Virus genome (UHGV): UHGV-0371280
Direction: 5' to 3' (one strand)
Source of the DNA: a virus
DNA: 34,882 nucleotides
Both the position numbers and the translations under genes were made by a program. This document shows positions 18,557 to 34,882 of this stretch, one piece after another. The notes under the pieces are model-generated. The model made no database searches. It was not told the DNA's origin and was given only the letters and a program-made list of their open reading frames with translations. Within the stretch, counting starts at the first letter, position 1, and each line of letters starts with the position of its first letter.

Positions 18557-18559
18557 CTG

Positions 18560-19654: not shown

Positions 19655-20936
19655 TGTGCCTCAGGCGCGATTTCTTTCAATGCCCCATAAATTTAAAGCC
19701 TATATTGCTGGTTTTGGCTCGGGCAAAACATGGGTTGGGTGTGGCGGCATATGCAAGGGGATTTGGGAGCATCCAGGTATAAATCAGGGATATTTTGCGC
19801 CAACGTATCCCCAAATTCGCGATATTTTTTACCCTACAGTGGAAGAAGTTGCTGCTGACTGGGGATTGAACGTAAAAATTAATGAGGGAAATAAAGAGGT
19901 TCACTTTTATTACGGACGCCAGTATCGGGGAACCACTATCTGCAGATCGATGGAGAAGCCACAAACGATCGTCGGTTTCAAAATTGGTAATGCGCTGGTG
20001 GATGAACTGGACATTTTGCCGAAGGAAAAAGCCAGAACGGCGTGGCGCAAGATAATTGCGCGTATGCGTTATAAGATTGATGGACTTCGCAACGGTATTG
20101 ACGTTACAACCACGCCGGAAGGATTCAAATTTGTCTACGAGCAGTTTGTTAAAGCCGTGCGTGAAAAAACAGAGCTGGCCTCACTGTATGGTCTGGTGCA
20201 GGCATCTACTTTCGATAATGAAAAGAACCTGCCAGCAGATTACATTCCTTCACTTCTTGAATCATACCCTCCAGAGCTGATTAAAGCCTATCTTCTAGGA
20301 CGGTTTACTAACCTGACAAGTGGTACTGTTTACCATCAGTTTGACCGGAAACTGAATAATTGCGAAGAAGTGGAGCAGCCAGGGGAGCCGATTTATATTG
20401 GGATGGATTTTAACGTTGGAAAGATGGCGGGAATCGTCCATGTGCTGCGTTTGGGGCTTCCATGTGCGGTAACTGAAATCATCAATGCCTACGATACGCC
20501 GGATATGATCCGCCTCATTAAAGAACGCTTCTGGCTGTATGACGGGCATGATTACCGGAAAGTGAGGGAGATTTATATTTATCCAGATGCTTCCGGAGAT
20601 TCCAGAAAATCAAGTAACGCAAGTACGACGGATATAGCCCAGCTTAAGCAGGCAGGTTTTAACGTTGTGGTGAACAGCTCGAACTCGCCAGTAAAAGATC
20701 GCGTTAACTCAATGAATGCAATGTTCTGCAATGCCAATGGTGAGCGTCGCTATAAAGTTAATGTGAAGCGTTGTCCGGTATATGCCGAATCTCTGGAGCA
20801 ACAGGTCTGGGATGATAAGGGGGAGCCTGATAAAAAATCTGGCAATGATCACCCGAATGATGCCGGAGGTTATTTCATCGTTAAGCAATTCCCTATTGTC
20901 AAACCGACCGGAAGAGTCACATCACTTCGGATTTAA
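19635..20936 (+). CDS. Terminase large subunit
   Basis: Walker A-like AYIAGFGSGKTWVGCG near the N-terminus and C-terminal acidic nuclease-type motifs (IYIGMDFN, IYPDASGD). AAGGAG 8 nt upstream of ATG 19635; alternative starts at 19626 and 19629. Confidence 0.85.
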   Translation: MISPTLNVPQARFLSMPHKFKAYIAGFGSGKTWVGCGGICKGIWEHPGINQGYFAPTYPQIRDIFYPTVEEVAADWGLNVKINEGNKEVHFYYGRQYRGTTICRSMEKPQTIVGFKIGNALVDELDILPKEKARTAWRKIIARMRYKIDGLRNGIDVTTTPEGFKFVYEQFVKAVREKTELASLYGLVQASTFDNEKNLPADYIPSLLESYPPELIKAYLLGRFTNLTSGTVYHQFDRKLNNCEEVEQPGEPIYIGMDFNVGKMAGIVHVLRLGLPCAVTEIINAYDTPDMIRLIKERFWLYDGHDYRKVREIYIYPDASGDSRKSSNASTTDIAQLKQAGFNVVVNSSNSPVKDRVNSMNAMFCNANGERRYKVNVKRCPVYAESLEQQVWDDKGEPDKKSGNDHPNDAGGYFIVKQFPIVKPTGRVTSLRI

Positions 20937-20938
20937 TT

Positions 20939-22345
20939 ATGGCTGATATATCAACACCCAACCTCGACTATAACGATATGCTGGAGGCGTGGGATATTAA
21001 CGACGCATTGATGGGCGGTACGCTTGAAATGCGCAGGCAGGGGGAAAATTATCTCCCCAAATGGCCTAATGAAGATGAAGACGCTTATAAAAAACGCCTG
21101 TCTGTGGCTACGTTACTTCCTGTGTATGAAGAAAGCATCAAACAAAATATTGGGCGCATATTTGCAGAGCCGACAGTATTGAGTGAGGAAACGCCGGAAA
21201 AAATCAGGGAATATGCAGAAAATATCGACATGGAGGGGAGCCGACTGGATGTGTGGGCGCAGCAATTTTTCAGTCTCGCATTTCAGTATGGTGTGGCACA
21301 TGCGCTGGTGGACTATCCACGAACGGATATGAACGAGATTCGGACAAAAGCCGATGAAAACGCGGCCGGTGGTCGCCCGTACGTTACGATGCTGAATCCA
21401 CGCCAGGTTATTGGATGGAAATCGAAAGTTGAAAAAGGGAAAGTTGTTCTCACTGATTTGCGTATAAAAGAGGTCATCATTATTGATGGTGATGATTTCG
21501 GGCAGAAGAAGGTGGAGCAGATCCGCCATATTATGCCCCGTCGAGTAGAAATTTATCGACGCAGCGAAGGTACTAATGGCGAATCTGTCTGGATGCTTCA
21601 TGAGTCATGGAATACCAGCCGTGATGATATTCCTCTGGTAACACTGTATACGAAGAAAACAGGGTTTATGCGTGGTACACCGCCATTGCTTAATCTTGGC
21701 TTGCTGAATATCAAGCACTGGCAAAGCCAGAGCGAGCAGGACAATATTCTTCATGTTGCCCGCGTTCCATTGCTGGTGGCCTACGGGCTGGACAGGAATG
21801 AAGAACTGACGGTTGGTGCATCCACGGCTACGATTTTTGAGGACAGAACAAAAAATGGCCTCGAATATGTTGAACATAGTGGCGCAGCGATAGAATCTGG
21901 CGAAACATCACTTGAGAAGCTGGAAAATCAGATGCGTCATGCCGGCGCTAAACTTCTGCGGGCTGAAAATACATCCACCAAATCTGTTGATCAGACTAAT
22001 GAAGAGCGGATGCAGGAACACTCGCCGCTTTATACAATGGCGAACTCCCTCGAAGATGCCCTCGATAATATTCTCCAGATAATGGCGGAATGGAGCGGAG
22101 AGAGTTGCGGTGGCAATGTGGATGTGCGCACTGAACTGGATGTATCTGCCCAGGTGTTTGACTCATCCTCCGCGCTGGCTGTTCAGTCATTGCGTCAGGG
22201 CGGTGATATACGTCAGATTGATGCGGTTCGGGTGTTGCAGGCGTTGAAATTTATCGATCAGGATTCCCGTCCAGAGGATGTGATCGATGAATTAAAAAAT
22301 CAGAGTGTAATGTTGATGGAAATCAATGATGCAAACCGTGAATGA
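20939..22345 (+). CDS. Portal protein (putative)
   Basis: 468 aa directly downstream of terL, the canonical portal position and size. Family not determined. Confidence 0.65.
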   Translation: MADISTPNLDYNDMLEAWDINDALMGGTLEMRRQGENYLPKWPNEDEDAYKKRLSVATLLPVYEESIKQNIGRIFAEPTVLSEETPEKIREYAENIDMEGSRLDVWAQQFFSLAFQYGVAHALVDYPRTDMNEIRTKADENAAGGRPYVTMLNPRQVIGWKSKVEKGKVVLTDLRIKEVIIIDGDDFGQKKVEQIRHIMPRRVEIYRRSEGTNGESVWMLHESWNTSRDDIPLVTLYTKKTGFMRGTPPLLNLGLLNIKHWQSQSEQDNILHVARVPLLVAYGLDRNEELTVGASTATIFEDRTKNGLEYVEHSGAAIESGETSLEKLENQMRHAGAKLLRAENTSTKSVDQTNEERMQEHSPLYTMANSLEDALDNILQIMAEWSGESCGGNVDVRTELDVSAQVFDSSSALAVQSLRQGGDIRQIDAVRVLQALKFIDQDSRPEDVIDELKNQSVMLMEINDANRE

Positions 22346-23441
22346 ACGGCTGCGTGATGAATCAATTGCTCATGCAGTCTGGATATCCCGCTATAGCACT
22401 GGTGTGGCTGCCAGAATGGTGAAAATACTGAATGACAGCGATGCGGAGCTTACAGCTCGCCTGCTGGTAGCACTGGACAGCCTCGATCCTGGTAGTTTTA
22501 CCGTTACGCGCCTGGAGTCACTTCTGGCGAGTGTCAGAGAGGTTAACCGCGCTGCTATTAACAGCATGTTTACCAGTCTCTCCGGAGAGCTGAACGAGCT
22601 GGCAATTTATGAGGCTGGTTATCAGTTAAGTCTGTTTGATTCTCTGCTACCTGATTTTGTTGCTGATGTTCACCCTCTGGTTGGTATATTTTCTGATGCA
22701 CTTTACGCCGCTGCAATGGCGCGACCATTCCAGGGACGACTGCTCAGTGAGTGGGCCTTGGATCTTGAGGCGGATCGGCTCAGACGCATAACAAATACGG
22801 TGCGTCAGGGTTTTTTGCTGGGGGATACCAATGAGCAGATCGCAAGAAAAATTCGGGGACATGTCAGCAAGGGATTTCAGGATGGTGCATTGCAGATGAG
22901 CCGGGCTAATGCGGCCAGCATTGCAAAAACAGCGGTTGGACATCTTGCTGCTACTGCCCGTGAGAGTTTTGCCAGCGCGAATAATGATTTGATTAAGGGT
23001 AAGCAATGGTTATCAACGCTTGATAATCGTACTACGCCACAATGTCGAATCAGGGATCGCCTCAAATATACGCTGGATAATAAACCTGTAGGTCACAGTG
23101 TGCCTTATTTGCATGGGCCGGGAAAAATTCATTTCTGCTGCCGCTCAACGGAAACGTTCATTCTGAAATCAGCGAAGGAACTGGGTATTGATGTTCGTGA
23201 TATTTCCCCGGCTGAGCGGGCCAGCATGGATGGCGTGGTGGCCGGAGATACAACCTACAGGGAATGGTTTTTGCGTCAGCCTTACACCAGACAAAAACAG
23301 ATTGTGGGGGAAACCCGGGCAAAGCTGATTCGGGATGGCGGTATGTCGCCAGATGAATTTTACACCGATAAAGGCGAATGGCTGACGCTGAAGCAACTCC
23401 GTGAGCGTGATGCACAGGTATTCAGAAAAGCAGGGATTTAA
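22326..23441 (+). CDS. Head morphogenesis protein (SPP1 gp7 / Mu F-like, putative)
   Basis: 371 aa; C-terminal segment ...NRTTPQCRIRDRLKYTLDNKPVGHSVPYLHGPGKIHFCCRST... resembles the Mu F-like motif. Follows the portal gene with a 20-nt overlap. Confidence 0.6.
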   Translation: MMQTVNERLRDESIAHAVWISRYSTGVAARMVKILNDSDAELTARLLVALDSLDPGSFTVTRLESLLASVREVNRAAINSMFTSLSGELNELAIYEAGYQLSLFDSLLPDFVADVHPLVGIFSDALYAAAMARPFQGRLLSEWALDLEADRLRRITNTVRQGFLLGDTNEQIARKIRGHVSKGFQDGALQMSRANAASIAKTAVGHLAATARESFASANNDLIKGKQWLSTLDNRTTPQCRIRDRLKYTLDNKPVGHSVPYLHGPGKIHFCCRSTETFILKSAKELGIDVRDISPAERASMDGVVAGDTTYREWFLRQPYTRQKQIVGETRAKLIRDGGMSPDEFYTDKGEWLTLKQLRERDAQVFRKAGI

Positions 23442-23460
23442 ATAAATCATTTATTACAAC

Positions 23461-23488
23461 AGGCTACCTTCGGGTGGCCTTTTTTATT
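23461..23488 (+). terminator. Intrinsic terminator (UUCG-type tetraloop hairpin plus U-tract)
   Basis: AGGCUACC-uucg-GGUGGCCU followed by TTTTTTATT. Preceded by an AT palindrome AATAAATcATTTATT (23441-23455) overlapping the upstream stop codon. Confidence 0.6.
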
Positions 23489-23545
23489 GCTGCGATCCGG
23501 ATGGTGAGCAGCGTAACTGTCGGAAGACTTAAACCAGGTACTAAT

Positions 23546-24310
23546 ATGAAACTGAAAACGGTCGAGATTAACGGAAAACAATACGCAGAAATTGATACTG
23601 CTGGCCTGCCAGTTTATGTGCACGACGATGGTAAAGAAATCGGCTTCGATGCACCGCTGGCGATAAAAAAAATTACAGAGCTTAATGGCGAGGCAAAAAA
23701 TCATCGCCTGGCTAAAGAAGCTGCAGAGGAAAAACTGGCTAAGTTTGCCGCTATCGAAGACCCGAAGAAGGCGATCGAGGCACTGGAAATGCTGTTAAAA
23801 ATCGACCAGAAAAAGCTGATCGATGCGGGACAGGTTGACCAGGTTAAGGCAGAAATTACGAAAAATTTTCAGCAGCAATTAGATGAAGAAAAGCAACGCT
23901 CTCAGATGCTGGAGACGCAGCTTTACGATTCTATGATTGGCGGTAGTTTTGCGGGTTCAAAATATATTGCCGATAAAATTGCGATCCCGGCAGATTTATT
24001 ACAAGCCCGCTTCGGGCAGGCATTCAAAGTGGAAGAAGGGAAGATCGTTGCTTATGACGCTTCCGGCAACAAAATTTATTCCCGCGCGAAGCCTGGCGAA
24101 CTGGCGCAGTTTGATGAGGCGCTGGAGTTCCTTGTCGAAAATTACCCTCAGAAAGACTACATCCTGAAAGCCAGTGGCAACAATGGCGGCGGCTCCCGTC
24201 CGACACAGCATGATATTGGTCAGAAAACGATGAAACGCTCTGCTTTTGATGCACTGGATGTTGCAGGTAAGCAAAACGCATTGAAAGACGGTATCACAAT
24301 CGTTGATTAA
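23546..24310 (+). CDS. Scaffolding protein (putative)
   Basis: 254 aa from ATG 23546 (MKLKTVEINGKQYAEIDTAGLPVYVHDDGKEIGF...), K/E/A-rich with predicted coiled-coil character, sitting between the head morphogenesis and capsid genes. The ORF-track start at 23474 lies inside the terminator. Confidence 0.5.
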   Translation: MKLKTVEINGKQYAEIDTAGLPVYVHDDGKEIGFDAPLAIKKITELNGEAKNHRLAKEAAEEKLAKFAAIEDPKKAIEALEMLLKIDQKKLIDAGQVDQVKAEITKNFQQQLDEEKQRSQMLETQLYDSMIGGSFAGSKYIADKIAIPADLLQARFGQAFKVEEGKIVAYDASGNKIYSRAKPGELAQFDEALEFLVENYPQKDYILKASGNNGGGSRPTQHDIGQKTMKRSAFDALDVAGKQNALKDGITIVD

Positions 24311-24408
24311 CACATTTGTCAGCTTCCGGATGGGAGCTGGTGTCAGGGCTGGATAGCTCATTACTCCATCTATTCACAATTACGCAAATTTTTAAGGAAT
24401 ATTTAATT

Positions 24409-25548
24409 ATGGCTGGAAATACCCTGACCGGGTTGATCCCGACTATTTATACCGCCCTGGATGTTGTATCCCGTGAGCAGGTAGGTTTTATCCCTGCGGT
24501 AGCAAAAAACGTAAAAGCTGACGCCGCAGCAAAAGATCAGACGGTAACCGCGCCAGTTGCGCCTGAGGCGAAAACCGAAGATATCGTACCGGGGCCGTCA
24601 GCTCCGAATACCGGTGATCAAAATATTGGCACTGTTGATGTAAAAATTACTAAATCCAAAATGGCACCGGTTAAATGGAATGGTGAAGAACAACTGGCTC
24701 TTGGCCCTTCAGGGACTTACAACACCATTCTGGCTGATCAGTTCAAGCAGGCTTTTCGCGCCCTTGCAAACGAGGTTGAGGCTGATCTTGGTGCGTTGTA
24801 TTTCGGTGCTTCCCGCGCCGTGGGAACCGCAGGGACAACGCCGTTTGGTGTTAAAGATGATCTTTCTGATGCTGCTCTGGCTCGTCAGGTTCTGGAGGAT
24901 AACGGCGCACCGACAACCGATCTGCAGATGGTGCTTGGCTCCACTGCCATTGCTAATTTGCGCGGAAAACAGTCTGTATTGTTTAAAGTGAATGAATCCG
25001 GCACTGAACAGCTACTGCGTGAGGGCGTGTTGGGGCGTCTGGAGGGATTCAATATTCACAGTTCGGCAGGTGTGAAACGAGCGCCAAAGGTTGCTGCAAC
25101 TGGTTATCTCGTGAATGGAGAGAAAAAAGAAGGCGATGTTCTTATTTCCATTGATACTGGTTCGGGGAGTATTTCTGCAGGTCAGATTGTTACGTTCGCT
25201 GGTGATCCGAATCAGTATGTTGTGGCAGCAGCGACCAGCAATCTGATTACTCTTGCAGCGCCCGGACTGCGTCAGGATCTGGCCGATGATACTGCCATCA
25301 CAGTTGTTGGGGCCTTTACGGCAAATATGGCGTTTGATCGCAACGCGTTTCTGCTGGCATCCCGTACTCCGGCAATGCCGGAAGGTGGCGATAATGCTGA
25401 TGATGTAATGAATGTTACGGACCCGATTTCAGGGATTACGTTCCAGATTGCACTGTATCGTCAGTATCGCCAGGTGCGCTATGAAGTTGGACTGGCATGG
25501 GGTGTTTCATCAGTGAAGCCGGCACATGGTTGTCTGATTCTTGGTTAA
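24409..25548 (+). CDS. Major capsid protein (putative)
   Basis: 379 aa from ATG 24409 (MAGNTLTGLIPTIYTALDVVSREQVGFIPAVAKNVK...), with AAGGAA upstream, after the scaffold gene and followed by a strong terminator. Confidence 0.6.
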   Translation: MAGNTLTGLIPTIYTALDVVSREQVGFIPAVAKNVKADAAAKDQTVTAPVAPEAKTEDIVPGPSAPNTGDQNIGTVDVKITKSKMAPVKWNGEEQLALGPSGTYNTILADQFKQAFRALANEVEADLGALYFGASRAVGTAGTTPFGVKDDLSDAALARQVLEDNGAPTTDLQMVLGSTAIANLRGKQSVLFKVNESGTEQLLREGVLGRLEGFNIHSSAGVKRAPKVAATGYLVNGEKKEGDVLISIDTGSGSISAGQIVTFAGDPNQYVVAAATSNLITLAAPGLRQDLADDTAITVVGAFTANMAFDRNAFLLASRTPAMPEGGDNADDVMNVTDPISGITFQIALYRQYRQVRYEVGLAWGVSSVKPAHGCLILG

Positions 25549-25556
25549 ACATTCAA

Positions 25557-25579
25557 ACGGGGCTTCGGCCCCATTTTTA
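25557..25579 (+). terminator. Intrinsic terminator after the capsid gene
   Basis: GGGGC-uucg-GCCCC perfect stem-loop followed directly by ATTTTT. Confidence 0.7.
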
Positions 25580-25590
25580 ATGGGGGGCAT

Positions 25591-25767
25591 ATGGCCGGAT
25601 TAACTAAAGAGCAAAGAGCACAGCGTGAAGCCGCACAAAAAACGCAAATTGAGTTAGTGGTTATGGTGACCGATTATCAGATGTTTCCCGGCGCACCAAC
25701 TATCGCTAATGTTCATCCTGATGAAGTTGACAACTGGAAGGCTATGGGCTGGAAAACTCAGGAGTAA
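25591..25767 (+). CDS. Small hypothetical protein (58 aa)
   Basis: MAGLTKEQRAQREAAQKTQIELVVMVTDYQMFPGAPTIANVHPDEVDNWKAMGWKTQE; GGGGGG 3 nt upstream of the ATG (short spacing). Stop lies 3 nt before the next gene. Below the ORF-track cutoff. Confidence 0.35.
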   Translation: MAGLTKEQRAQREAAQKTQIELVVMVTDYQMFPGAPTIANVHPDEVDNWKAMGWKTQE

Positions 25768-25770
25768 CAC

Positions 25771-26166
25771 ATGATCACTTACGTGACCTGTGATGACGTT
25801 GATAATGCGTTTGGGAACGCCTGGACGAGTGAGAACGCTAAAAATAAAGCTGTTTTAATGGCTAATGCCTGGCTTAATGGCTTCAACCTGAAAATTAACC
25901 CATCCCGTATTCCGGAAGAGGTAAAACTTGCGGGAGCATATGCAGCCAGAATTGCCTCATTCGGTAAGTTGTTTCAGCAGAAAAATGATTCTGGCGTTGT
26001 TATCAGTAAAGCCGTGTCGGCTGACGGGGTCAGTGTATCGAAATCATTTTCTGAGTTGCCAGCAAACAGCACTGCATTGCTTGAACCCGATTTACAGCTT
26101 GCGATAGCACTGCTGAAACCGTACGGACTTAGTCGCTCACAAGTCAGGGTTGTGAGGGGGGGATAA
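25771..26166 (+). CDS. Head-tail connector / head completion protein (putative, by position)
   Basis: 131 aa; AGGAG 6 nt upstream; first of four tightly packed ~130 aa genes between capsid and tail tube. Confidence 0.4.
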   Translation: MITYVTCDDVDNAFGNAWTSENAKNKAVLMANAWLNGFNLKINPSRIPEEVKLAGAYAARIASFGKLFQQKNDSGVVISKAVSADGVSVSKSFSELPANSTALLEPDLQLAIALLKPYGLSRSQVRVVRGG

Positions 26167-26549
26167 TGGGGCTTCGTGAAGAGATTCAGTCAGAGGTTGC
26201 CGCTGCTTTTGATGAGGATTTAGCGGACGCCGTGAGTGATTTTTCTGGTTCTTACGTTACGCACCGGCACTGGGATCCTGTGACGGAAACTGGCGGCGAA
26301 TCCACCGCAATCTATACCGGGCGAGGCGTGTTGACACGTTATAAGCTGGGCAGAATTGATGGGATTAATATTTTGCATGGTGACCTTAAATTAACCGCTC
26401 TGGTATGCGAGGTTACGGATAAACCAGCTGTCGACCATATTATTGAGATTTATGATCCTGTATCAAGGCAGTTACAACGATACGAGGTAATTACAGCAAG
26501 TGTAGATCCTTCCGCATCAGTTTACTCTATCCAGTTAAGGAGAGCGTAA
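26166..26549 (+). CDS. Head closure / neck protein (putative, by position)
   Basis: 127 aa; TAATG overlap with the upstream gene. Confidence 0.4.
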   Translation: MGLREEIQSEVAAAFDEDLADAVSDFSGSYVTHRHWDPVTETGGESTAIYTGRGVLTRYKLGRIDGINILHGDLKLTALVCEVTDKPAVDHIIEIYDPVSRQLQRYEVITASVDPSASVYSIQLRRA

Positions 26550-26930
26550 ATGGCAAAGGCATGGGATATAGAACCGTCAATATTTGCCGGGATGATTGAG
26601 GAAGATGTAGGGCTGAAGATTCGCTACATCGCTATTCAGATTCTTACTGCTATTGATATTGCTGCTCCGGTTGATACCGGACGTTTCAGAAATAACAACC
26701 TGGTGTCGTTACAGCATCCCGATTTTGGTATATCTGATAACGTGGATCCGAACGGTACGATTGCTGTTCAGCGTGGGATCGGGGTTATTTCGAAAGCTGC
26801 AAATTACGGAGTTATTTATATCCAGAATAACCTTCCTTATGCAGAGGCTCTTGAAAACGGTCATTCACAACAAGCGCCAACTGGCGTGTATGCCAACGCT
26901 TTTCATGGTGTTTTACAGGCTTACAAATGA
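26550..26930 (+). CDS. HK97 gp10-like head-tail joining protein (putative)
   Basis: 126 aa with ...IAAPVDTGRFRNNN..., resembling the gp10-family VDTGxLR signature. Confidence 0.5.
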   Translation: MAKAWDIEPSIFAGMIEEDVGLKIRYIAIQILTAIDIAAPVDTGRFRNNNLVSLQHPDFGISDNVDPNGTIAVQRGIGVISKAANYGVIYIQNNLPYAEALENGHSQQAPTGVYANAFHGVLQAYK

Positions 26931-27319
26931 CGTTTACTGAAATCAGAAATACGGTTATTTCCAGAATGACGGCACAGACGATTATTGATGGAAAAGACGT
27001 ATTGTATCCGAACGCGCCAACGTTCGATCCTTCCGGTAAGTTAATCTGGGCGCGGTTAAGTAATATTCCCGGGCAGGCTGGAGTTAATGAAATTGGCGCG
27101 GGGCCGATTGTTTATCGCACGGGGATAATCATTATTCAGTTATTTGTCCCCGCAGGTTCTGGTTCAAAACTCATTACTGAGACAGCCGATAAATTGCGGG
27201 AACTGTTTGAGTTTCAGGATGACGATCGTCTCAGTTACCAGGCTGTTTCCTCAATAGCCGTTGGCGAAAAGAATGGCTGGTTCCAGCTTAATCTTCAAAT
27301 TCCATATCGCGCGCTCTAG
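26927..27319 (+). CDS. Tail completion / tail terminator protein (putative, by position)
   Basis: 130 aa; 4-nt overlap with the upstream gene; directly precedes the tail tube gene. Confidence 0.4.
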   Translation: MTFTEIRNTVISRMTAQTIIDGKDVLYPNAPTFDPSGKLIWARLSNIPGQAGVNEIGAGPIVYRTGIIIIQLFVPAGSGSKLITETADKLRELFEFQDDDRLSYQAVSSIAVGEKNGWFQLNLQIPYRAL

Positions 27320-27345
27320 CGCAATTAATGACATAGGAGGCTCCT

Positions 27346-28308
27346 GTGAGTTCAGGTGCAAAGGTTATCTCGGCATTTATCCGGGAGACGGTTGCAGGCA
27401 CTACGCCAGCAAGTGGTGACTGGAGTTTATTAAAACGCACAAGCTGGGGAGTAAAACCCACCCAGAATAAAGGCGAAAATAATGAGATTGGTGGCTCCCG
27501 GATGGCTCAGGGGGCGACGCCTGGCACTGTGGATGTCGGCGGTGATGTTGGTACCAAATTTCGCTGGGGTCAACATGATGATTTTCTTGCATCCTGTTTC
27601 GGCGCGGAATGGTCAGGCGATTCTCTGACAATGGGGAATGAGCGAATAACATTTTCTCTGGCGACCTATGCGTCCGATGTCGGAATTGCCTCTGTCGTCA
27701 GAGGAGCGCAGGTTGGCTCATGGAAAATGCAGATCCCTAACGACGGCGATATTACAGCGACCGTAACCTTTGCCGGACTGGACTGGGAATCAAAGGCCGA
27801 TGATACGAATTTTATCAAAGGCGAACCTGTGGATAGTGCAGGAAAGCTACGTTATTCGTTTAAGGAGGTTTCAGCAGTAAGCCTGAATGGTGTTGCCGGA
27901 GGTAACGGTTTTTGTATCGACAGTTTTGATATTCAGTTCGATAACAAACTCCAGACACAGCGTTGTATCGGGACTGGCTCGCCTTATGCAGGAGCAAATA
28001 TTCCGACTACTTTTACACCGTCCGGTACGGTGACGCTTTCATGGTCTAAAGCCGCGTGGGAAATCTGGAGTAAAACACTGACTGGAGAAACAGTTCCGTT
28101 CAGCTTCACGCTTTCGAATGGAGAGGGGGCATACACTTTCAGTTTCCCGAAGGTTCAGGTGTCAGGTGAATGGCCTGATGGGGGTAATAGCGACATTATC
28201 CAGGTTCAATTGAGCATTACCGCAGCAGATGAAGCACCTACGATAACCAGAAAAAAAAATTCCCCGGCTGCCGTGATCGCAAAAGCCAGTGCTGAGGCGA
28301 TTAGTTGA
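27346..28308 (+). CDS. Major tail tube protein (putative)
   Basis: 320 aa, GTG start with AGGAGG 5 nt upstream, immediately before the chaperone and tape measure genes. Confidence 0.55.
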   Translation: MSSGAKVISAFIRETVAGTTPASGDWSLLKRTSWGVKPTQNKGENNEIGGSRMAQGATPGTVDVGGDVGTKFRWGQHDDFLASCFGAEWSGDSLTMGNERITFSLATYASDVGIASVVRGAQVGSWKMQIPNDGDITATVTFAGLDWESKADDTNFIKGEPVDSAGKLRYSFKEVSAVSLNGVAGGNGFCIDSFDIQFDNKLQTQRCIGTGSPYAGANIPTTFTPSGTVTLSWSKAAWEIWSKTLTGETVPFSFTLSNGEGAYTFSFPKVQVSGEWPDGGNSDIIQVQLSITAADEAPTITRKKNSPAAVIAKASAEAIS

Positions 28309-28356
28309 TTTTCCGTTATTCCTCCTGTGGTACTGCCCTACAGGGGGACGCATTGA

Positions 28357-28818
28357 ATGAGGTTATGGATGTTTATTCTTAATCAGAAAATTATCATTGG
28401 TGGAGAACGCTGGTTTACGCCAATGAAGGACTTAAAACCTGTAGACGGGTTAAAACTGTTGGTGGCAAGCAGCGATAACGATCAGTATCGCTCCCGTAAT
28501 GCATTAATCCGTCGCCACATTGAGAAAATGGATGCCAGTTTGCACGTCGGAACGAAGGAGTTTGATATTTCAAAGGTTTCCGAGGTGGATTCTGTTGATG
28601 ATTTACTCATTGATAATGCCGCTCGTTATCTGCTGAAAGACTGGAAAGGGGTTGGTGAACTGGTTAATGGTGTTGAGGTTGCACTGGAATATACGGCAGA
28701 ACGAGGGATCGCGCTGCTTAAGCAGAATCCAGAGTTGTACTGGCAGATCCTTGCAGAAGCAGCCAGCATCGCCCAGGGTAAAGAGCAGCAGAAGCAGGAT
28801 ACGATAAAAAAGCCATAG
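28357..28818 (+). CDS. Tail assembly chaperone (G-like)
   Basis: 153 aa; GGGGGA 7 nt upstream of ATG 28357; terminates 6 nt after an A_AAA_AAG slippery site, with an open -1 frame continuing to 29126. Confidence 0.75.
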   Translation: MRLWMFILNQKIIIGGERWFTPMKDLKPVDGLKLLVASSDNDQYRSRNALIRRHIEKMDASLHVGTKEFDISKVSEVDSVDDLLIDNAARYLLKDWKGVGELVNGVEVALEYTAERGIALLKQNPELYWQILAEAASIAQGKEQQKQDTIKKP

Positions 28819-29126
28819 CTGCCCAGCGGTGGTTATCGGAGTTCGGGGGAGAAAGGGGGGAAAAGGCAAGATGGAAGCGAGAAAAACTCAGGTTGCCACC
28901 GATACCGGAACCAGAAATAGACCCGGTGCTTAAGGAGTTGTTGTACGCCTATTCGGTAATATCCCGTGCCCGACGTTATGCTGGAATGGCTGGGGTGCCT
29001 TTGCCTTTATCTCTGACAGAGATAAATGAATATTTAGCCACTCATCCGGTATTGATTGAGCGCGATGAATTTGAAGCAGTGATCTTTGCACTGGATGACC
29101 AGTATTTTCAGGAGCAGTGTGTGTAG
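28357..29126 (+). CDS. Tail assembly chaperone G-T-like fusion product (via -1 frameshift at 28806-28812)
   Basis: Joined frames predict about 256 aa: G-like body plus extension ...AIAAQRWLSEFGGERGEKARWKREKLRLPPIPEPEIDPVLKELLYAYSVISRARRYAGMAGVPLPLSLTEINEYLATHPVLIERDEFEAVIFALDDQYFQEQCV. Confidence 0.7.
28806..28812 (+). other. Programmed -1 frameshift slippery heptamer A_AAA_AAG
   Basis: Zero-frame codons ata AAA AAG cca TAG; the -1 frame is open from 28782 and continues to the stop at 29124-29126. Confidence 0.8.
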
Positions 29127-29246
29127 TTGTTAATTACGTACACTCTGTTACAGAGATGTGATGGTGTCTTTAATTAAATCGATGATGCTCCTGGAGAAAA
29201 GCATTGCGTGGCCTCGTAATCGCTATATCTACTATTATGTCGCCTG

Positions 29247-29272
29247 AAACCCACTTCGCGGTGGGTTTTTTG
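29247..29272 (+). terminator. Intrinsic terminator between the chaperone and tape measure genes
   Basis: AAACCCAC-uucgcg-GUGGGUUU 8-bp stem, with the T-run TTTTTT continuing from the 3' arm. Confidence 0.6.
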
Positions 29273-29291
29273 TTGTCAGGAGTTTTAATAA

Positions 29292-32200
29292 ATGGCAGAG
29301 CAAACCTCGCGTCTCGCAATAATTATTGATAGCACTGGAGCGAAAAATAATGCTGACAATCTGACCTCCTCATTAGTCAAAATGACGCAGGCTGGGGAAA
29401 CTGCTGCAAATAGCGCAGGGAAAGTGACTAAGGCAACAGAAGATGAGAAGAACGCGCTCGCAAAATTAAAAGCAGCTATTGATCCAGTTGGTGCCGCAAT
29501 TGATACTGTCGGTCGACGCTATTCTGAATTAAAGAAATTTTTCGATAAAGGGCTTATTGATAAAGAAGAATATGAATTTCTTGTCCGTAAACTTAATGAA
29601 ACCACAGAGGAATTGAGCGGGGTTGCGCAAGCGCAGAGAGAAGCCGAGAAGGCCGGAAAACTTGCTGCCGCCCAGCAGGAAGCGCAGGCTCAGGCCTTTC
29701 AAAGAATGCTGGACAAGATCGACCCTCTGGCTGCGGCGCTAAGAAATCTTGAACAACAGCATGATGAACTTAATGCTGCGTTTGCATCCGGGAAAATAAA
29801 TGGTTCTCAGTTTGAGAATTATAGCCGAAAAATACAGGAAACACGGCGAGAGCTTACCGGAGAGGCTCAGGCAGAGCGAGAAGCAGCAAAAGCGCATGAT
29901 GAACAGGTTGTTGCTTTGCAACGTCTGATTGCTCAACTTGATCCTGTCGGAACTGCTTTTAATCGTCTGGTAGAACAACAGAAACAGCTCAATGAAGCAA
30001 AAGCTAAGGGGATGCTTTCTCCTGAAATGTATGAGGAGCTTTCTGGAAAACTTCGTGCTATGCGGAGTGAGCTTGAGGTTACTCAATCACAATTAAGCAA
30101 AACCGGAATGTCGGCAAAACAAACGGCTTTTGCTATGCGCATGTTGCCTGCACAAATGACGGATATTGTTGTTGGGTTGTCCACTGGTCAGTCGCCATTT
30201 ATGGTGTTAATGCAGCAGGGCGGCCAGCTAAAAGATATGTTCGGTGGGATTGGCCCGGCGATCAAAGGGGTAGGTTCTTATGTGCTGGGATTAATTAATC
30301 CTTTTACCCTGGCCGCAGCAGCCGTTGGGGTCTTAGGACTGGCTTACTATAAAGGCTCTCAGGAGCAGGACGAATTTAATAAATCTCTTATTCTTACCGG
30401 AAATCAGTTGGGGACAACCAGCGGGCAATTGGGCGATTTAGCTCAACGTGCCGGGAATGCGGCTGATTCGACAACTGGTGCTGCGGCGGCAGTATTAAAT
30501 CAGCTTGTGCGTTCGGGAAAGGTAGCGAGCAGTTCGCTGGAGCAAGTGACGACAGCGATAGTAAAAACGAGCGAAGTAACAGGAATATCAACCGAACAAC
30601 TGGTTAATGACTTCAATGAAATTGCAAAGGATCCTGTCAGTGCCATATCAAAACTTAATGATCAGTACCATTTTCTGACACTTGCGACTTATAACCAGAT
30701 TAAGGCGCTACAGGATGAAGGGAACCAGCAGGAGGCCGCCCGCATTGCGACAGAAGAATACTCATCCTCAATGATCCAGCGCACCAACCAGATTAAAGAA
30801 AATCTTGGTTATCTTGAGACTGCATGGAAAGCTGTCGCAGACTCCGCAAAATGGGCATGGGATTCCATGCTGGATATTGGCCGTGAGGCCTCCCTTGATC
30901 AAAAAATCTCAGATGTTCTCCGTCAAATTGATGAAATAGAAAAAAATACCCGATCCGGAGTTTTCGGGTTAGGTGGCATTGGAGATGGCGGAGCTCAAAA
31001 TAAAAGGCTGGCACGATTAAAGCAGCAATTGGGCGTACTTCAAGCAGAAAAAATTGCTCAGGACGTACTAAATTCATCAATAAACGATTACAACAAGCGA
31101 CAACAGGAAGGAATTGAACTCAGACAGAGAGCAGATGCCTTTTCAAAACAATATCAGACCCGGGAGCAGCAGAGAGCTAGTGAACTTGCAAAACTGGAAA
31201 AGCTAAAGAATCAGTATTCAAAGGAAGAATATAATAATCTTATCGCTCAAATAAATGAGCGTTATAAAGATCCAAAGCAACCAAAGGCGAAAGATTATTC
31301 TGATGATGCAGCCCAACGAATGATTGATCATCTGAATCAACAGAATGCGTTACTAAGTTCACAAGCTGAGTTGACCGTTAAATTAAGTTCCTCTGAACAG
31401 GAACTGGTTAAGTGGCGTCAGCGGATTGCCGACCTAGAGTCACGACCATCATCGAAATTAACCCAGGATCAGAAATCGCTTCTCTTACACCGGGAAGAAA
31501 TAACCACGTTGATGGAGAAAAATGTTGCGATTGAAAAAAATAACAGGCTAATCAAGGAATCCGCCGAAATAACAGCATGGCGTGATTCATTGCAGGCTTC
31601 GATTGATAATCGTCAGCAGGGGTATGATATTCAGATTGCTGGTTATGGGGTTGGCGGTAAAAATCAGCAACGCCAGCAGGAATTACTGCGGATTGAACAT
31701 GGATATAACAATCAGCGTCTGCAACTTGAACGTGACTATGCAGATAAATCCCGTGGAATGTCAGATCATGTTTTTCAAGAGAAAATGCAGGCTCTGAATG
31801 ATGCTCTGGAACGGGAAAAAGAAATTGTCAGACAGAAAAACGAGCAGCTCGATATTCAGGCAGGAGACTGGGTTAGTGGTGCCTCCCAGGGATTCAATAA
31901 CTGGCTGGATGACACTAAGGATATCAGTGAGCAGATAAAATCAACCACGACTCAGATGTTTGATGGGATGACCGATGCGCTGGGTGATTTTGTCACGACA
32001 GGCAAGGCAAATTTTCGTTCTTTCGCTACTTCCGTGATTTCGGATCTTAGTCGAATAGCATTAAAGGCTTCAATTACTGGGATTTTCGACAGCATTAGTA
32101 ACAGTTCTTCTGGGGGGATTTTAGGAACTATCGGGAGTGCTATTAGTAAATTTATTCCGAATGCAAAGGGCGGTGTTTATGAGTCTCCGTCATTGAGCAC

Positions 32201-32525
32201 GTATTCGAACGGTATTTATGATTCCCCGCAATTTTTTGCTTTTGCAAAAGGGGCTGGTGTTTTTGGTGAGGCTGGACCGGAAGCCATTATGCCATTAACA
32301 CGAACTTCCGATGGTTCTCTTGGTGTCAGAGCTATTAATAGTAAAAGTGGTAATGGAGGCGGAGATATTACCTATGCCCCTGTATACCAAATCACTATTC
32401 AAAATGACGGCCAGAATGGAGAGATTGGCCCTCAGGCAATAAAAGCACTTATGGGGATGGTTGATCAGCGGGTGCAGGGCAATCTGTTAAATATGCGACG
32501 TGATGGGGGAATGTTAAGTGGCTAA
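29292..32525 (+). CDS. Tail tape measure protein (lambda H-like)
   Basis: 1077 aa; conserved block [39 protein letters not shown] parallels lambda [40 protein letters not shown]; C-terminus [35 protein letters not shown] is also H-like; long coiled-coil middle. Confidence 0.93.
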
Positions 32526-32856
32526 TACGGAAGAATTTCACTGGTTACCAGAGGATGGAATGAAAACAGAAAATAAACCATCGATAAAAACTGTAAGATT
32601 TGGCGATGGTTATGAGCAACGAAGTCCAAATGGACTTAATCATTCTCTGCGCGTTTTCACCTGTGATTTCAAAGTTGAGGCGAATGAACGTGATTCATTT
32701 GAAAAATTTTTAGCCCGGCATGAAGGCTATAAATCTTTTTTTTGGCGCCCGCCGGGTATTAACAGAAAAATCAGAGTGGTGTGTCGAACGTGGTCAGCGA
32801 CAGAACATATCACCTATACCGATTTTTCGTGTCAGTTTGACGAAGTGGTGATCTGA
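32518..32856 (+). CDS. M: Minor tail protein M
   Basis: 112 aa with ...[24 protein letters not shown]...KSFFWRPP..., aligning with lambda gpM (RKVRFGDGYSQRAPAGLN...KSFLWTPP). GTG start overlapping the tape-measure stop. Confidence 0.9.
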
Positions 32857-33554
32857 TGCAGGACATACAACAGGAAACGCTGAATGAATGCATTCGTGCG
32901 GAGCAGTCGGCCAGCGTGGTGCTCTGGGAAATCGACCTGACCGAGGTAGGCGGGGATCGCTACTTTTTCTGTAATGAGCAGAACGAAAAAGGTGAGTCTG
33001 TCACCTGGCAGAGTCGGCAGTATCAGGCCTATCCCATTCAGGGGAGTGGATTTGAGATGAACGGCAAGGGCAGTGCTGCCCGTCCGACACTGACGGTCTC
33101 TAACCTGCACGGCATGATCACCGGGATGGCGGAAGATCTGCAGAGTCTGGTCGGTGGAACGGTGGTCCGGCGTAAGGTTTACGCCCGCTTTCTGGATGCG
33201 GTGAACTTCGTCAACGGAAACAGCGAAGCCGATCCGGAGCAGGAGGTGATCAGCCGCTGGCGCATCGAGCAGTGCAGCGAACTGAGCGCGGTCAGTGCCT
33301 CTTTTGTACTGTCCACGCCGACTGAAACGGATGGCGCTGTTTTTCCGGGACGTATCATGCTGGCCAACACCTGCACCTGGACCTATCGCGGCGATGAGTG
33401 CGGTTATAGCGGTCCGGCGGTCGCGGATGAATATGACCAGCCGACGTCCGATATCACGAAGGATAAATGCAGCAAATGCCTGAGTGGCTGTAAGTTTCGC
33501 AATAATGTCGGCAACTTTGGCAGCTTCCTTTCCATTAACAAACTTTCGCAGTAA
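32856..33554 (+). CDS. L: Minor tail protein L
   Basis: 232 aa [72 protein letters not shown]..., near-identical to lambda gpL. Confidence 0.95.
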   Translation: MQDIQQETLNECIRAEQSASVVLWEIDLTEVGGDRYFFCNEQNEKGESVTWQSRQYQAYPIQGSGFEMNGKGSAARPTLTVSNLHGMITGMAEDLQSLVGGTVVRRKVYARFLDAVNFVNGNSEADPEQEVISRWRIEQCSELSAVSASFVLSTPTETDGAVFPGRIMLANTCTWTYRGDECGYSGPAVADEYDQPTSDITKDKCSKCLSGCKFRNNVGNFGSFLSINKLSQ

Positions 33555-33559
33555 ATCCC

Positions 33560-33715
33560 ATGACAGAGACAGAATCAGCGATTCTGGCGCACGCCCGGCG
33601 ATGTGCGCCAGCGGAGTCGTGCGGCTTCGTGGTGAGAACGCCGGAGGAGGAAAGATATTTTCCCTGCGTGAATATCTCCGGTGAACCGTTACGCCACCAG
33701 TCATCCCCGCGATGA
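33560..33715 (+). pseudogene. K: Tail assembly protein K, 5' fragment (codons 1-43) fused to antisense K sequence; stops after 51 codons
   Basis: MTETESAILAHARRCAPAESCGFVVRTPEEERYFPCVNISGEP matches the lambda gpK N-terminus, then reads LRHQSSPR*. Breakpoint about 33683-33688. Confidence 0.8.
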
Positions 33716-33867
33716 AAATCCGGCATCTCAATTCCCGCCAGATGGTAAGCGTCCCGGAACAGCGTGTAACAGTCCGTTACCCCGTGCTCAAAGCGCCGCC
33801 CGGTGAGATGCGGCACACAGCGGAATTTATGAATCGCCCCCCGGCAGACCAGCCACCACGGCAAATC
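33685..33867 (-). pseudogene. K: Inverted internal fragment of K (about codons 89-149)
   Basis: Minus strand encodes DLPWWLVCRGAIHKFRCVPHLTGRRFEHGVTDCYTLFRDAYHLAGIEMPDFHRGDDWWRNG, the gpK middle region, bounded on both sides by plus-strand K and I sequence. Confidence 0.8.
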
Positions 33868-33868
33868 C

Positions 33869-34339
33869 ATGGCACGCATCTGCCTTTACGGGGATTTACA
33901 ACGATTTGGCCGCCGCATCGACCTTCGAGTGAAAACGGGGTCCGAAGCCATCCGGGCGCTGGCCATGCAGATCCCGGCATTTCGTCAGAAACTGAGCGAC
34001 GGCTGGTACCAGGTACGCATTGCCGGGCGTGATGCAGGTGAAACCGAATTGTCTGCCCGTCTTAATGAGCCGCTGGAAAATGGTGCCGTGATCCATATCG
34101 TGCCGCGTCTGGCAGGAGCCAAAAGTGGCGGTGTGTTTCAGGCTGTGCTGGGGGCGGCTGTTATGGCGGTTGCTATATGGATGAAAGGCAGATGCGTGCC
34201 ATGCCCGGTGACGCCAGAGGGAGTGTGTGCGTCGCTGCCATTTGTCGGTGTACCTCTCTCGTTTGCTCAGTTGTTCAGGAATATGGTGCAGCAGCTCGCT
34301 GTCACCACAGTAAATGGCGGCATGATTCGGCACCGATGA
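33869..34339 (+). pseudogene. I: Tail assembly protein I, 5' portion (about codons 1-100) running into antisense K sequence
   Basis: MARICLYGDLQRFGRRIDLRVKTGSEAIRALAMQIPAFRQKLSDGWYQVRIAGRD...VPRLAGAKSGGVFQAVLGAA matches the lambda gpI N-terminus. From about 34170-34184 the frame is antisense of the K 3' end (IWMKGRCVPCPV...). Confidence 0.75.
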
Positions 34340-34531
34340 ACCAAAGCAGCACAGCAGCACGTCGCCAGGCTGCGCCTCTGTCAGTGCGACACGGTAAAAA
34401 CCAGTCGCCTCCATATTGTCAAGATAGAGATTCTGACCGTTACGCCACCAGTCATCCCCGCGATGAAAATCCGGCATCTCAATCCCCGCCAGATGATAAG
34501 CATCCCGGAACAGCGTGTAACAGTCCGTCAC
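34184..34531 (-). pseudogene. K: Inverted fragment of K (about codons 118-233)
   Basis: Minus strand encodes VTDCYTLFRDAYHLAGIEMPDFHRGDDWWRNGQNLYLDNMEATGFYRVALTEAQPGDVLLCCFGSSVPNHAAIYCGDSELLHHIPEQLSKRERYTDKWQRRTHSLWRHRAWHASAF. Its 5' end abuts the ATG of the next plus-strand K copy. Confidence 0.8.
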
Positions 34532-34882
34532 ATGACACAGACAGAATCAGCGATTCTGGCGCACGCCCGGCGATGTGCGCCAGCGGAGTCGTGCGGCTTC
34601 GTGGTAAGCACGCCGGAGGGGGAAAGATATTTCCCCTGCGTGAATATCTCCGGTGAGCCGGAGGCGTATTTCCGTATGTCGCCGGAAGACTGGCTGCAGG
34701 CAGAAATGCAGGGTGAGATTGTGGCGCTGGTCCACAGCCACCCCGGTGGTCTGCCCTGGCTGAGTGAGGCCGACCGGCGGCTGCAGGTGCAGAGTGATTT
34801 GCCGTGGTGGCTGGTCTGCCGGGGGACGATTCATAAGTTCCGCTGTGTGCCGCATCTCACCGGGCGGCGTTTTGAGCACGGG
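34532..34882 (+). CDS. K: Tail assembly protein K, N-terminal 116 codons of a second copy; runs off the right edge
   Basis: MTQTESAILAHARRCAPAESCGFVVSTPEGERYFPCVNISGEPEAYFRMSPEDWLQAEMQGEIVALVHSHPGGLPWLSEADRRLQVQSDLPWWLVCRGTIHKFRCVPHLTGRRFEH... is colinear with lambda gpK to the window end. Confidence 0.85.
   Translation, partial: MTQTESAILAHARRCAPAESCGFVVSTPEGERYFPCVNISGEPEAYFRMSPEDWLQAEMQGEIVALVHSHPGGLPWLSEADRRLQVQSDLPWWLVCRGTIHKFRCVPHLTGRRFEHG

What the first reader, a model, noticed from the sequence alone, without database searches (positions are those of the whole stretch)
33560..34882. K/I tail-assembly genes scrambled into five segments of alternating orientation
Left to right: K codons 1-43 (+), K codons ~149 to 89 inverted, I codons 1 to ~100 (+), K codons ~233 to 118 inverted, then K codons 1-116 (+) to the window edge. 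Junctions alternate tail-to-tail and head-to-head. Two direct repeats (33560-33684 vs 34532-34656, and 33685-33776 vs 34440-34531) differ at a few positions each, so they come from diverged K alleles rather than one duplication. The first junction shows microhomology (TGA/CCG). This pattern fits template-switch or fold-back rearrangement between multiple lambdoid prophages, or a chimeric assembly.
Basis: seen in the sequence. Interest (0 to 1): 0.65.

Follow-up and report, generated by a model that had tools for sequence, protein, structure and literature searches.

The report
Scrambled tail genes, probably assembly artefact
The last 1.3 kb of this E. coli prophage sequence really is a patchwork of tail-gene pieces that alternate in orientation, but the evidence suggests it arose when the sequence was produced (a contig end inside genes shared by several prophages), not in the cell.

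Summary
After an intact L gene come K nt 1-125 (+), K codons 149-89 (-), I codons 1-105 (+), K codons 233-118 (-) and K codons 1-117 (+), from two K alleles.

I rate it as most likely not a biological structure, for these reasons:
- The window ends exactly where piece E should continue into piece D. E + rc(D) + C rebuild one gap-free 995-nt K-I stretch with a complete 247-aa K.
- All junctions are blunt strand flips, with jumps of 296-415 nt.
- A fifth junction of the same kind lies at 14378/14379 inside the lysozyme gene rrrD. It joins a lambda-like prophage (minus strand) head-to-head to the Rac-like prophage that carries L-K.
- Allele switches fall inside exact shared stretches (rrrD nt 319-398, K nt 541-699). 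Half of the break ends sit directly after sites that vary between natural alleles, as expected for assembly-graph nodes.
- No junction is found in 5,426 complete E. coli genomes or in three large contig collections. Contigs with the identical tape-measure protein have normal L-K-I-J.

A real multi-step template-switch rearrangement in a dead prophage is not excluded (about 0.25). Reads or PCR would decide.

The parts
32856..33554 (+). Intact minor tail protein L gene of the Rac-like prophage (P1). It is the last normal gene before the scramble.
   Evidence: 232-aa ORF. Pfam Phage_tail_L, 7e-98. Colinear with L001.
33560..33684 (+). Segment A: K gene (tail tip assembly protein, C40 peptidase), P1 allele, nt 1-125 (codons 1-41 plus 2 nt).
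   Evidence: Continuous with L. 99.7 % to L001 26622-27310. Junction detail.
33685..33867 (-). Segment B: K codons 149->89, P1 allele, reverse-complemented.
   Evidence: 100 % to L001 27628->27446. Also 100 % to L005-L007.
33868..34183 (+). Segment C: 1 nt upstream plus codons 1-105 of tail assembly protein I.
   Evidence: 100 % to L001 27861-28176. Pfam Lambda_tail_I, 2.7e-24.
34184..34531 (-). Segment D: K codons 233->118 (NlpC/P60 domain), second allele K'. The left 159 nt (34184-34342, K nt 699-541) are identical in both alleles.
   Evidence: 93 % to L001 and 98 % to L002. Allele alignment. Pfam.
34532..34882 (+). Segment E: K' codons 1-117 (JAB domain). It starts at the natural ATG and ends at the window edge, exactly where D would continue.
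   Evidence: E + rc(D) is an in-frame K' 1-233 that aligns in one piece with natural K alleles at up to 99.4 %. E + rc(D) + C gives 995 nt, gap-free, with a complete 247-aa K.
33868..33887 (.). One arm of the 20-nt exact inverted repeat (other arm 34184-34203). It is K nt 680-699, the overlap between tiles D and C.
13941..14378 (-). Lysozyme rrrD, codons 165->21, antisense. It carries the P2 allele for nt 498-399 (13941-14040) and the P1 allele for nt 398-61 (14041-14378). It ends bluntly at junction J0.
   Evidence: This hybrid is not seen in 5,426 complete genomes; the best match is 98.4 %.
14379..14456 (+). rrrD of P1, codons 141-165, sense. It begins immediately after a common P1/P2 SNP (nt 420). 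J0 (14378/14379) is a fifth blunt strand flip. Nt 14379-14401 is an exact inverted copy of 13996-14018.
1..14378 (-). Late region of a lambda-like prophage (P2): tape measure H (codons 1-704, running off the left end), T, G, V, U, Z, FII, FI, E, D, C, B, W, A, Nu1, Rz, rrrD.
14379..33684 (+). Late region of a Rac-like prophage (P1): Rz, trkG, terminase, portal, head, tail tube, tape measure, M, L and the 5' end of K. It differs from E. coli LD26-1 by 4 SNPs in 19,306 nt, with no indels.

Best explanation
The scramble is most likely not a structure of the living genome. It is a product of contig construction inside genes that several lambdoid prophages of one E. coli genome share.

The window reads as a walk around the 'bubble' formed by two prophage late regions, P2 on the minus strand and P1 on the plus strand. 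These regions share the lysis gene rrrD at one end and the tail genes K/I at the other. At both shared ends the walk turns round illegally: short pieces of 125-351 nt are laid down in the wrong orientation and joined bluntly. The path slips from one allele to the other inside stretches where the alleles are identical. The sequence stops when it would have to re-enter a piece it has already used.

Shown here: the anatomy, the tiling, the second junction, the allele switches, and the absence of the junctions elsewhere.

Inferred: that software did this (graph traversal, scaffolding, or node concatenation that ignored orientation). I could not identify which program.
For: 1. The window ends at K' nt 351, and D's right end is K' nt 352. 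E + rc(D) + C rebuild one gap-free 995-nt K-I stretch with a complete 247-aa K. A random window or contig end would hit that base with a chance of about 1/1000.

2. A fifth blunt strand flip, J0 at 14378/14379, lies in rrrD, the other gene cluster shared by the two prophages. It joins P2(-) to P1(+) head-to-head.

3. Left of J0 the rrrD copy changes from the P2 allele to the P1 allele inside an 80-nt identical stretch (nt 319-398). In D the P1/K' change can only lie in the 159-nt identical stretch, K nt 541-699. This is how paths cross between repeat copies in an assembly graph.

4. D has the orientation of P2's own K. D -> rc(E) -> L2, M2 and the end of H2 would lead back to window position 1, so the walk nearly closes.

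5. Five of 10 break ends come directly after sites that vary between natural alleles: K 264, 351, 447, 995 and rrrD 420 (P about 0.016). Seven of 10 are on codon boundaries (P about 0.02), which third-position SNPs would explain.

6. The overlap sequences appear as exact inverted repeats at the far end of the traversed piece (20 nt and 23 nt).

7. None of four junctions tested (J0, A|B, B|C, D|E) spans in 5,426 complete E. coli genomes, and no place there holds 80 % of 33400-34882. Junction strings are absent from genome, metagenome and viral contig collections. Chimeric ORF products are not on record.

8. Three of the contigs with the identical 1077-aa tape-measure protein (L005-L007) reach through K-I; they are colinear and match pieces A-C at 100 %. 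L004 is colinear too, with a different K/I allele. Ninety other K loci hold no inverted fragments.

9. K, I and rrrD are multi-copy, with a median of 2-4 places per genome.
Against: - Standard de Bruijn or overlap assemblers cannot create a blunt junction without reads that contain it. I could not name a program that produces exactly this output.
- The two overlap lengths (20 and 23 nt) do not fit one k.
- The E|D boundary has no overlap at all.
- The flanking 33.7 kb is of very high quality (4 SNPs and no indels against a complete genome; H open over 704 codons). The data behind it were therefore good.
- Two plus-strand pieces begin at, or 1 nt before, the start codons of K and I, and both head-to-head junctions carry start codons on both strands. 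SNP-delimited nodes do not explain this.
- The SNP and codon statistics are post hoc and only moderately significant.
- The source assembly and its reads were not available.
Confidence: 0.5

Rival explanations
1. Real in vivo rearrangement. In this strain the Rac-like prophage suffered one or several replication-based strand-switch events (fork template switching or MMBIR-like, 'chromoanasynthesis' in miniature) inside rrrD and K/I. This left a dead prophage with inverted, deleted and duplicated gene pieces. The assembler followed the true junctions, crossed to other prophage copies inside identical stretches, and stopped at the inverted repeat D/rc(D).
For: - Each blunt flip is within one allele and jumps only 296-415 nt, a scale compatible with switching across a replication fork.
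- Graph assemblers need junction-spanning reads, which a clonal rearrangement would provide at full depth.
- Stopping exactly at K' nt 351 is also what an assembler does at the edge of an exact inverted repeat.
- The surrounding sequence is of high quality.
- Prophage decay is common.
Against: - At least five illegitimate, strand-switching junctions with 0-1 nt (once 3-4 nt) of microhomology are needed, at two sites 19 kb apart. Both sites happen to be the genes shared with other prophages.
- Template switching normally uses 2 or more nt of microhomology.
- Break ends correlate with allelic SNP sites and codon phase, which molecular breakage should not do.
- Nothing similar is found in 5,426 complete genomes, in 90 other K loci, or in the closest relatives.
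Confidence: 0.25
2. Chimeric DNA molecules made in vitro and then faithfully assembled. Candidates are strand-displacement whole-genome amplification (MDA), fold-back priming during library preparation, or chimeric long reads at a contig end that were later polished with short reads.
For: - In MDA long-read data, inverted chimeras outnumber direct ones about 9:1, partners lie within about 1 kb, and reads can carry several alternating segments (bioRxiv 10.1101/2022.08.13.503872).
- Ligation-prepared nanopore libraries give 0.18-7.33 % inverted-repeat chimeric reads (PMC13141652).
- All five junctions here are inverted, with jumps of 296-415 nt within one allele.
Against: - MDA chimeras usually show 3-30 nt of overlap. 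Here there is 0-1 nt at four of five junctions.
- Four flips in 1.2 kb is far denser than one event per 3-11 kb.
- Nanopore fold-back reads turn round with no offset, not 300-400 nt.
- Random chimeras would be at low depth and should not coincide with SNP sites or start codons.
- It would have to happen independently at both shared gene clusters.
Confidence: 0.2
3. Programmed DNA inversion: a site-specific invertase (Pin/Gin/shufflon type) shuffles domain-sized cassettes of K and I to vary the tail tip.
For: - The tiles match protein domains: E is JAB, D is NlpC/P60, C is the Lambda_tail_I domain.
- Both head-to-head junctions carry start codons on both strands.
Against: - No pair of recombination-site repeats flanks any piece. 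The only inverted repeats are the 20-nt tile overlap and the diverged gene copies themselves.
- No invertase gene lies in the window.
- No intact K or I ORF results from the arrangement.
- No other locus among 90, or among 5,426 genomes, shows any alternative arrangement.
- K and I are conserved assembly factors, not receptor-binding proteins (general knowledge).
Confidence: 0.02

Closest known systems
Repeat-induced misassembly or chimeric contig end in multi-copy lambdoid prophage genes
   Same: - It sits in the last 1.2 kb of the sequence.
- It lies in genes present 2-4 times per E. coli genome.
- Alleles switch inside identical stretches.
- The sequence ends at a repeat boundary.
- The junctions are unique to this sequence.
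   Different: Ordinary misassemblies join through a shared repeat, so the junction looks homologous. Here the joins are blunt and flip strand, and there are five of them.
MDA or library inverted chimeras (strand-displacement template switching)
   Same: Orientation alternates, the partner lies a few hundred nt away on the opposite strand of the same locus, and several segments follow one another.
   Different: There is almost no junction overlap, the density is much higher, and the break ends coincide with allelic SNPs, codon boundaries and start codons.
Fold-back inversions or MMBIR-type complex rearrangements (serial replication template switches)
   Same: A chain of strand switches with short jumps produces inverted, deleted and duplicated pieces.
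   Different: Microhomology of 2-6 nt is typical of these events but nearly absent here. I know of no bacterial prophage precedent (own knowledge; not searched for here) and found none among the genomes and loci compared. Two separate sites are affected.
Lambda tail tip genes L-K-I-J (normal arrangement)
   Same: The pieces are 93-100 % identical to natural K and I genes, and together they rebuild a complete K and the 5' part of I.
   Different: Order and orientation are broken, so no intact K or I ORF exists in the window. J is absent because the window ends.

Membership tests
Lambda gpK-type tail tip assembly protein (Prok-JAB + NlpC/P60) | One continuous ORF of about 247 aa with an N-terminal JAB/MPN domain and a C-terminal NlpC/P60 domain, located between L and I. 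| tested here: not met
   Both domains are found only after joining E + rc(D) in silico. The window itself has no continuous K ORF. The restored sequence does encode a full 247-aa K.
Lambda gpI-type tail assembly protein | A complete ORF of about 200-223 aa with the Lambda_tail_I N-terminal domain, overlapping the end of K and followed by J. | tested here: not met
   Only codons 1-105 are present (Lambda_tail_I, 2.7e-24). The ORF then runs into antisense K. J is not in the window.
Repeat-induced assembly artefact | Lies in sequence present in several copies in the genome, at or near a contig end. | tested here: met
   K/I has a median of 4 places per genome and rrrD a median of 2. The scramble occupies the last 1.2 kb, and the window ends on a breakpoint.
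Repeat-induced assembly artefact | Path changes between repeat copies inside stretches where the copies are identical. | tested here: met
   The P2->P1 change lies within rrrD nt 319-398. The P1->K' change lies within K nt 541-699.
Repeat-induced assembly artefact | Junctions are not supported by reads, or are not reproducible in an independent assembly. | not testable with these tools
   No reads or source assembly were available. As an indirect test, four junctions (J0, A|B, B|C, D|E) do not span in 5,426 complete genomes, and junction strings are absent from three contig collections.
Repeat-induced assembly artefact | Junctions lie within a shared repeat at least as long as the overlap or k-mer used. 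| tested here: not met
   Junctions are blunt, with 0-1 nt of overlap and once 3-4 nt. The overlap sequences (20 and 23 nt) sit at the far end of the traversed piece.
MDA-type inverted chimera | Adjacent segments lie on opposite strands of the same locus within about 10 kb. | tested here: met
   All five junctions flip strand within one allele, with jumps of 296-415 nt.
MDA-type inverted chimera | A short overlap (3-30 nt) at the junction. | tested here: not met
   Four of five junctions have 0-1 nt.
Site-specific invertase switch (Gin/Pin/shufflon) | Inverted recombination sites flank each invertible segment, with a nearby recombinase gene. | tested here: not met
   No such repeats were found. 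No recombinase appears among the window ORFs or the annotated homologous regions.
Replication template-switch (MMBIR/FoSTeS-like) rearrangement | Microhomology of 2 or more nt at most junctions, and clonal presence in the genome. | tested here: inconclusive
   The microhomology criterion is not met at four of five junctions. Clonality cannot be tested without reads.

The most novel reading that the evidence does not exclude
The junctions are real and clonal. A single catastrophic replication event in an E. coli prophage made at least five nearly blunt strand switches, each jumping 300-400 nt, at two sites 19 kb apart. That would be a bacterial, kilobase-scale counterpart of chromoanasynthesis, caught with both parental alleles still recognisable.
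Probability: 0.2. Interest if true: 0.45.

Novelty: not a real feature. Interest (0 to 1): 0.12.

Why it matters
If it is an artefact, as I think most likely, the main value is as a caution. This 34.9-kb sequence should not be read as one phage or prophage. It fuses the late regions of two different prophages head-to-head at 14378/14379 and ends in a scrambled K/I. Gene content, synteny or 'novel ORF' calls from 13.9-14.5 kb and 33.6-34.9 kb would be wrong.

It also gives a recognisable signature for this kind of error:
- blunt strand flips with jumps of 300-400 nt;
- tiles that rebuild a colinear gene when flipped back;
- allele changes inside identical stretches;
- termination on a breakpoint.

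If it is real, it would document an unusually dense series of template switches in a bacterial genome. That would interest people who study replication-based rearrangement, but it has no evident functional consequence beyond inactivating a prophage.

Tried and rejected
- **Source contig.** I tried to find it through exact chimeric ORF products. Six products across the junctions and one Rz2 variant were not on record.
- **Junction strings in public collections.** No hits in genome, metagenome or viral contigs.
- **One combined 300-nt query of all five junctions.** It was uninformative because half-matches passed the E-value limit. I replaced it with four separate 100-nt queries.
- **L004.** This is a metagenome scaffold in which K is not called and a minus-strand ORF appears instead. 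It turned out to be a colinear K of another allele, not a scramble.
- **Possible 11-nt similarity upstream of the D|E junction** (hits covering 61 % of the query). It is a chance 7-8/11 resemblance between antisense K codons 118-121 and the natural L-K spacer. I noted it but it is not convincing as microhomology.
- **Restriction-site or cloning origin.** CATG or CCATGG occurs at the two head-to-head junctions, but the other break ends carry no such site. Rejected.
- **Language-model-generated or noisy long-read sequence.** Rejected for the bulk of the window: P1 differs from a complete genome by 4 SNPs in 19.3 kb, and its variant tape-measure protein exists in 16 public contigs.
- **ORF-fragment-based (protein-guided) assembler.** It could explain the codon-phase and ATG-start pieces. 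It would still need overlaps at the junctions, so this remains speculation.
- **Paired-end mate geometry.** A strand flip plus an offset of about one insert size fits only two of the five junctions.
- **Simple inversions.** A single inversion, or homologous recombination between inverted prophages, cannot give head-to-head gene fragments.

Full report
**What is there.** The window is E. coli prophage DNA. Positions 14379-33684 are the late region of a Rac-like prophage, called P1 here. It carries the 3' end of rrrD, then Rz, trkG, terminase, portal, head genes, tail tube, a 1077-aa tape-measure protein, M and L. It differs from strain LD26-1 by only 4 substitutions in 19,306 nt, with no indels.

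After the intact L gene (32856-33554) the K gene starts normally at 33560. I mapped the tail of the window onto the colinear L-K-I of LD26-1. This gives five pieces:

| Piece | Window | Strand | Content | Identity to LD26-1 |
|---|---|---|---|---|
| A | to 33684 | + | K nt 1-125 | 99.7 % |
| B | 33685-33867 | - | K codons 149->89 | 100 % |
| C | 33868-34183 | + | 1 nt + I codons 1-105 | 100 % |
| D | 34184-34531 | - | K codons 233->118 | 93 % |
| E | 34532-34882 | + | K codons 1-117 | 95 % |

**Junction anatomy.** I compared each junction with its parental sequences on both sides. B|C, C|D and D|E are blunt, with 0-1 shared nucleotide. A|B has CCG after one mismatch, or a 4-nt ACCG if the local K carried the natural GAA variant of codon 42. 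Every junction is a strand flip. The jump along the gene is 322, 415, 296 and 351 nt.

**The last three pieces are one gene cut in three.** E + rc(D) is an in-frame K' 1-233. It aligns in one piece with natural K alleles at up to 99.4 %. E + rc(D) + C, dropping the 20 nt that C shares with D, is exactly 995 nt. It aligns without gaps to natural K-I and encodes a complete 247-aa K plus I 1-105. So 33868-34882 is one colinear K-I stretch cut at nt 351|352 and at nt 680-699. The order of the pieces is reversed, and only the middle piece is reverse-complemented.

The window ends at K' nt 351, and D's right end is K' nt 352. The sequence therefore stops exactly where it would have to re-enter a piece it already contains.

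**A second junction of the same kind.** Positions 1-14378 belong to a different, lambda-like prophage (P2) on the minus strand. It runs from tape measure H, open over 704 codons to the left edge, through T, G, V, U, Z, FII, FI, E, D, C, B, W, A, Nu1 and Rz to rrrD.

At 14378/14379 the antisense rrrD stops bluntly at codon 21. It is followed by sense rrrD from codon 141, a jump of 360 nt. No complete genome spans this point.

Aligning the lysis cassettes shows more. Left of the junction, rrrD carries the P2 allele for nt 498-399. For nt 398-61 it carries the P1 allele at all 14 diagnostic sites. The change of allele therefore lies in an 80-nt stretch where the alleles are identical. That hybrid is absent from 5,426 complete genomes, where the best match is 98.4 %. 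The P1 sequence right of the junction starts immediately after a common SNP at nt 420.

In the same way, K of P1 and K' are identical over nt 541-699. D can therefore begin as P1 and end as K'.

Together these points change the picture. Every blunt flip is within one allele. Every change of allele is inside an identical stretch.

**The overall shape.** P2(-) and P1(+) are joined by turn-arounds inside the two gene clusters they share, rrrD and K/I. D has the orientation of P2's own K. In a natural P2, D -> rc(E) -> L, M and the end of H would lead back to window position 1. The sequence thus looks like a nearly closed walk around the bubble that two prophage late regions form in an assembly graph.

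At J0 and at C|D the walk enters a piece at one end and runs through it. It then leaves by a connection that belongs to the entry end. The overlap sequences therefore appear as exact inverted repeats some 300 nt apart: 23 nt at 13996-14018 vs 14379-14401, and 20 nt at 33868-33887 vs 34184-34203.

**Break ends and allelic variation.** Seven of 10 independent break ends fall on codon boundaries (P = 0.02). I compared the break positions with 56 distinct K-I alleles and 39 rrrD alleles from viral contigs. Five of 10 break ends come directly after a polymorphic site: K 264, 351, 447, 995 and rrrD 420 (P = 0.016). K nt 126 is also polymorphic in E. coli genomes. Most such sites are third codon positions, which would explain the codon phase.

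Break points set by differences between repeat copies are a property of assembly graphs, not of DNA breakage. These statistics are post hoc and moderate, so I use them only as support.

**Absence elsewhere.**
- No place in 5,426 complete E. coli genomes holds 80 % of 33400-34882.
- None of four junctions tested there with 100-nt probes spans.
- Junction strings are absent from the genome, metagenome and viral contig collections.
- Six chimeric ORF products are not on record.
- Sixteen public contigs carry the identical variant tape-measure protein. Of the six shown, L005-L007 are colinear through K-I with pieces A-C at 100 %. L004 is colinear with a different allele. L008 and L009 end before K.
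- Ninety other K loci contain no inverted K/I fragments.

**What does not fit.** Ordinary de Bruijn or overlap assemblers cannot invent a blunt junction, and I could not name the program responsible. The overlaps of 20 and 23 nt do not fit one k, and E|D has no overlap.

Two plus-strand pieces begin at the ATG of K, or 1 nt before the ATG of I. At B|C a CCATGG palindrome puts an in-frame ATG before K codon 89 on the minus strand. D ends on a GTG. The tiles also match protein domains. I have no firm explanation for this gene-aware look. Conservation blocks between alleles tend to follow domains, and an ORF-fragment-based assembler exists, but both ideas are speculative.

**Alternatives.**
- *A real in vivo multi-switch rearrangement (0.25).* It would supply the junction reads and would also explain termination at the D/rc(D) inverted repeat. 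However, it needs at least five almost blunt illegitimate joins at exactly the two shared gene clusters. It also does not explain the SNP and codon bias.
- *In vitro chimeras (0.2).* Orientation and distance match what is reported for MDA and ligation libraries. The missing overlaps, the density of four flips in 1.2 kb, and the positional biases do not match.
- *A programmed invertase system (0.02).* It fails for lack of recombination sites, a recombinase, intact products or any second arrangement.

**Verdict.** Most likely this is not a biological feature: about 0.7 for an artefact of assembly or library combined. The whole window is a head-to-head fusion of two prophages. Reads, long reads or PCR across the five junctions would settle it.

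Noticed in passing
window 14378/14379: A head-to-head blunt junction inside the lysozyme gene rrrD (antisense codon 21 | sense codon 141). It fuses a lambda-like prophage late region (1-14378, minus strand) to a Rac-like one (14379 onward, plus strand). No complete E. coli genome spans it, so the window should not be treated as one phage.
   Followed up: yes
window 13941-14378: The rrrD copy left of that junction is a hybrid: P2 allele for nt 399-498 and P1 allele for nt 61-398. The switch lies inside an 80-nt identical stretch. This combination is not seen in 5,426 complete genomes (best match 98.4 %).
   Followed up: yes
window 15037-16512: The host-type potassium transporter gene trkG sits between the lysis genes and the terminase of the Rac-like prophage, in the lowest-GC stretch of the window (about 37.5 % against 45-50 % around it). 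This is the known Rac cargo gene, here inside an apparently complete late region.
   Followed up: partly
window 1-12000 vs 12000-33000: Sharp composition change: 54-61 % GC in the lambda-like head and tail genes against 37-50 % in the Rac-like region. GC skew changes sign near 14 kb, consistent with the two opposed transcription directions.
   Followed up: no
window 20685, 22690, 31657, 33155: These are the only four differences from E. coli LD26-1 over 19.3 kb. Three are non-synonymous: terminase P->S, minor head protein S->F, and tape measure D789G. The D789G tape-measure protein occurs in 16 public contigs.
   Followed up: partly
window 33868-33871 and 34531-34534: Both head-to-head junctions contain CATG, which gives start codons on both strands at B|C (an in-frame ATG before K codon 89). 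At D|E a natural GTG (codon 118) lies back-to-back with the ATG of K'. Unexplained.
   Followed up: partly
L004 10265-11008 (ENA ERZ28659261 scaffold_353): In this metagenome scaffold, which carries the identical tape-measure protein, K is colinear but no K gene was called; a 136-aa minus-strand ORF was called instead. Its K 5' half resembles the K' allele (98.6 %) while the 3' half is only 88 % to K'. This is an example of natural K mosaicism.
   Followed up: partly
L010 18071-19297 (E. coli A25, prophage next to the bio operon): The prophage carrying one of the closest K' alleles (99.4 %) has Nu1 followed almost directly by M. Most head and tail genes appear to be deleted, so it is a decayed lambda-like prophage.
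   Followed up: no
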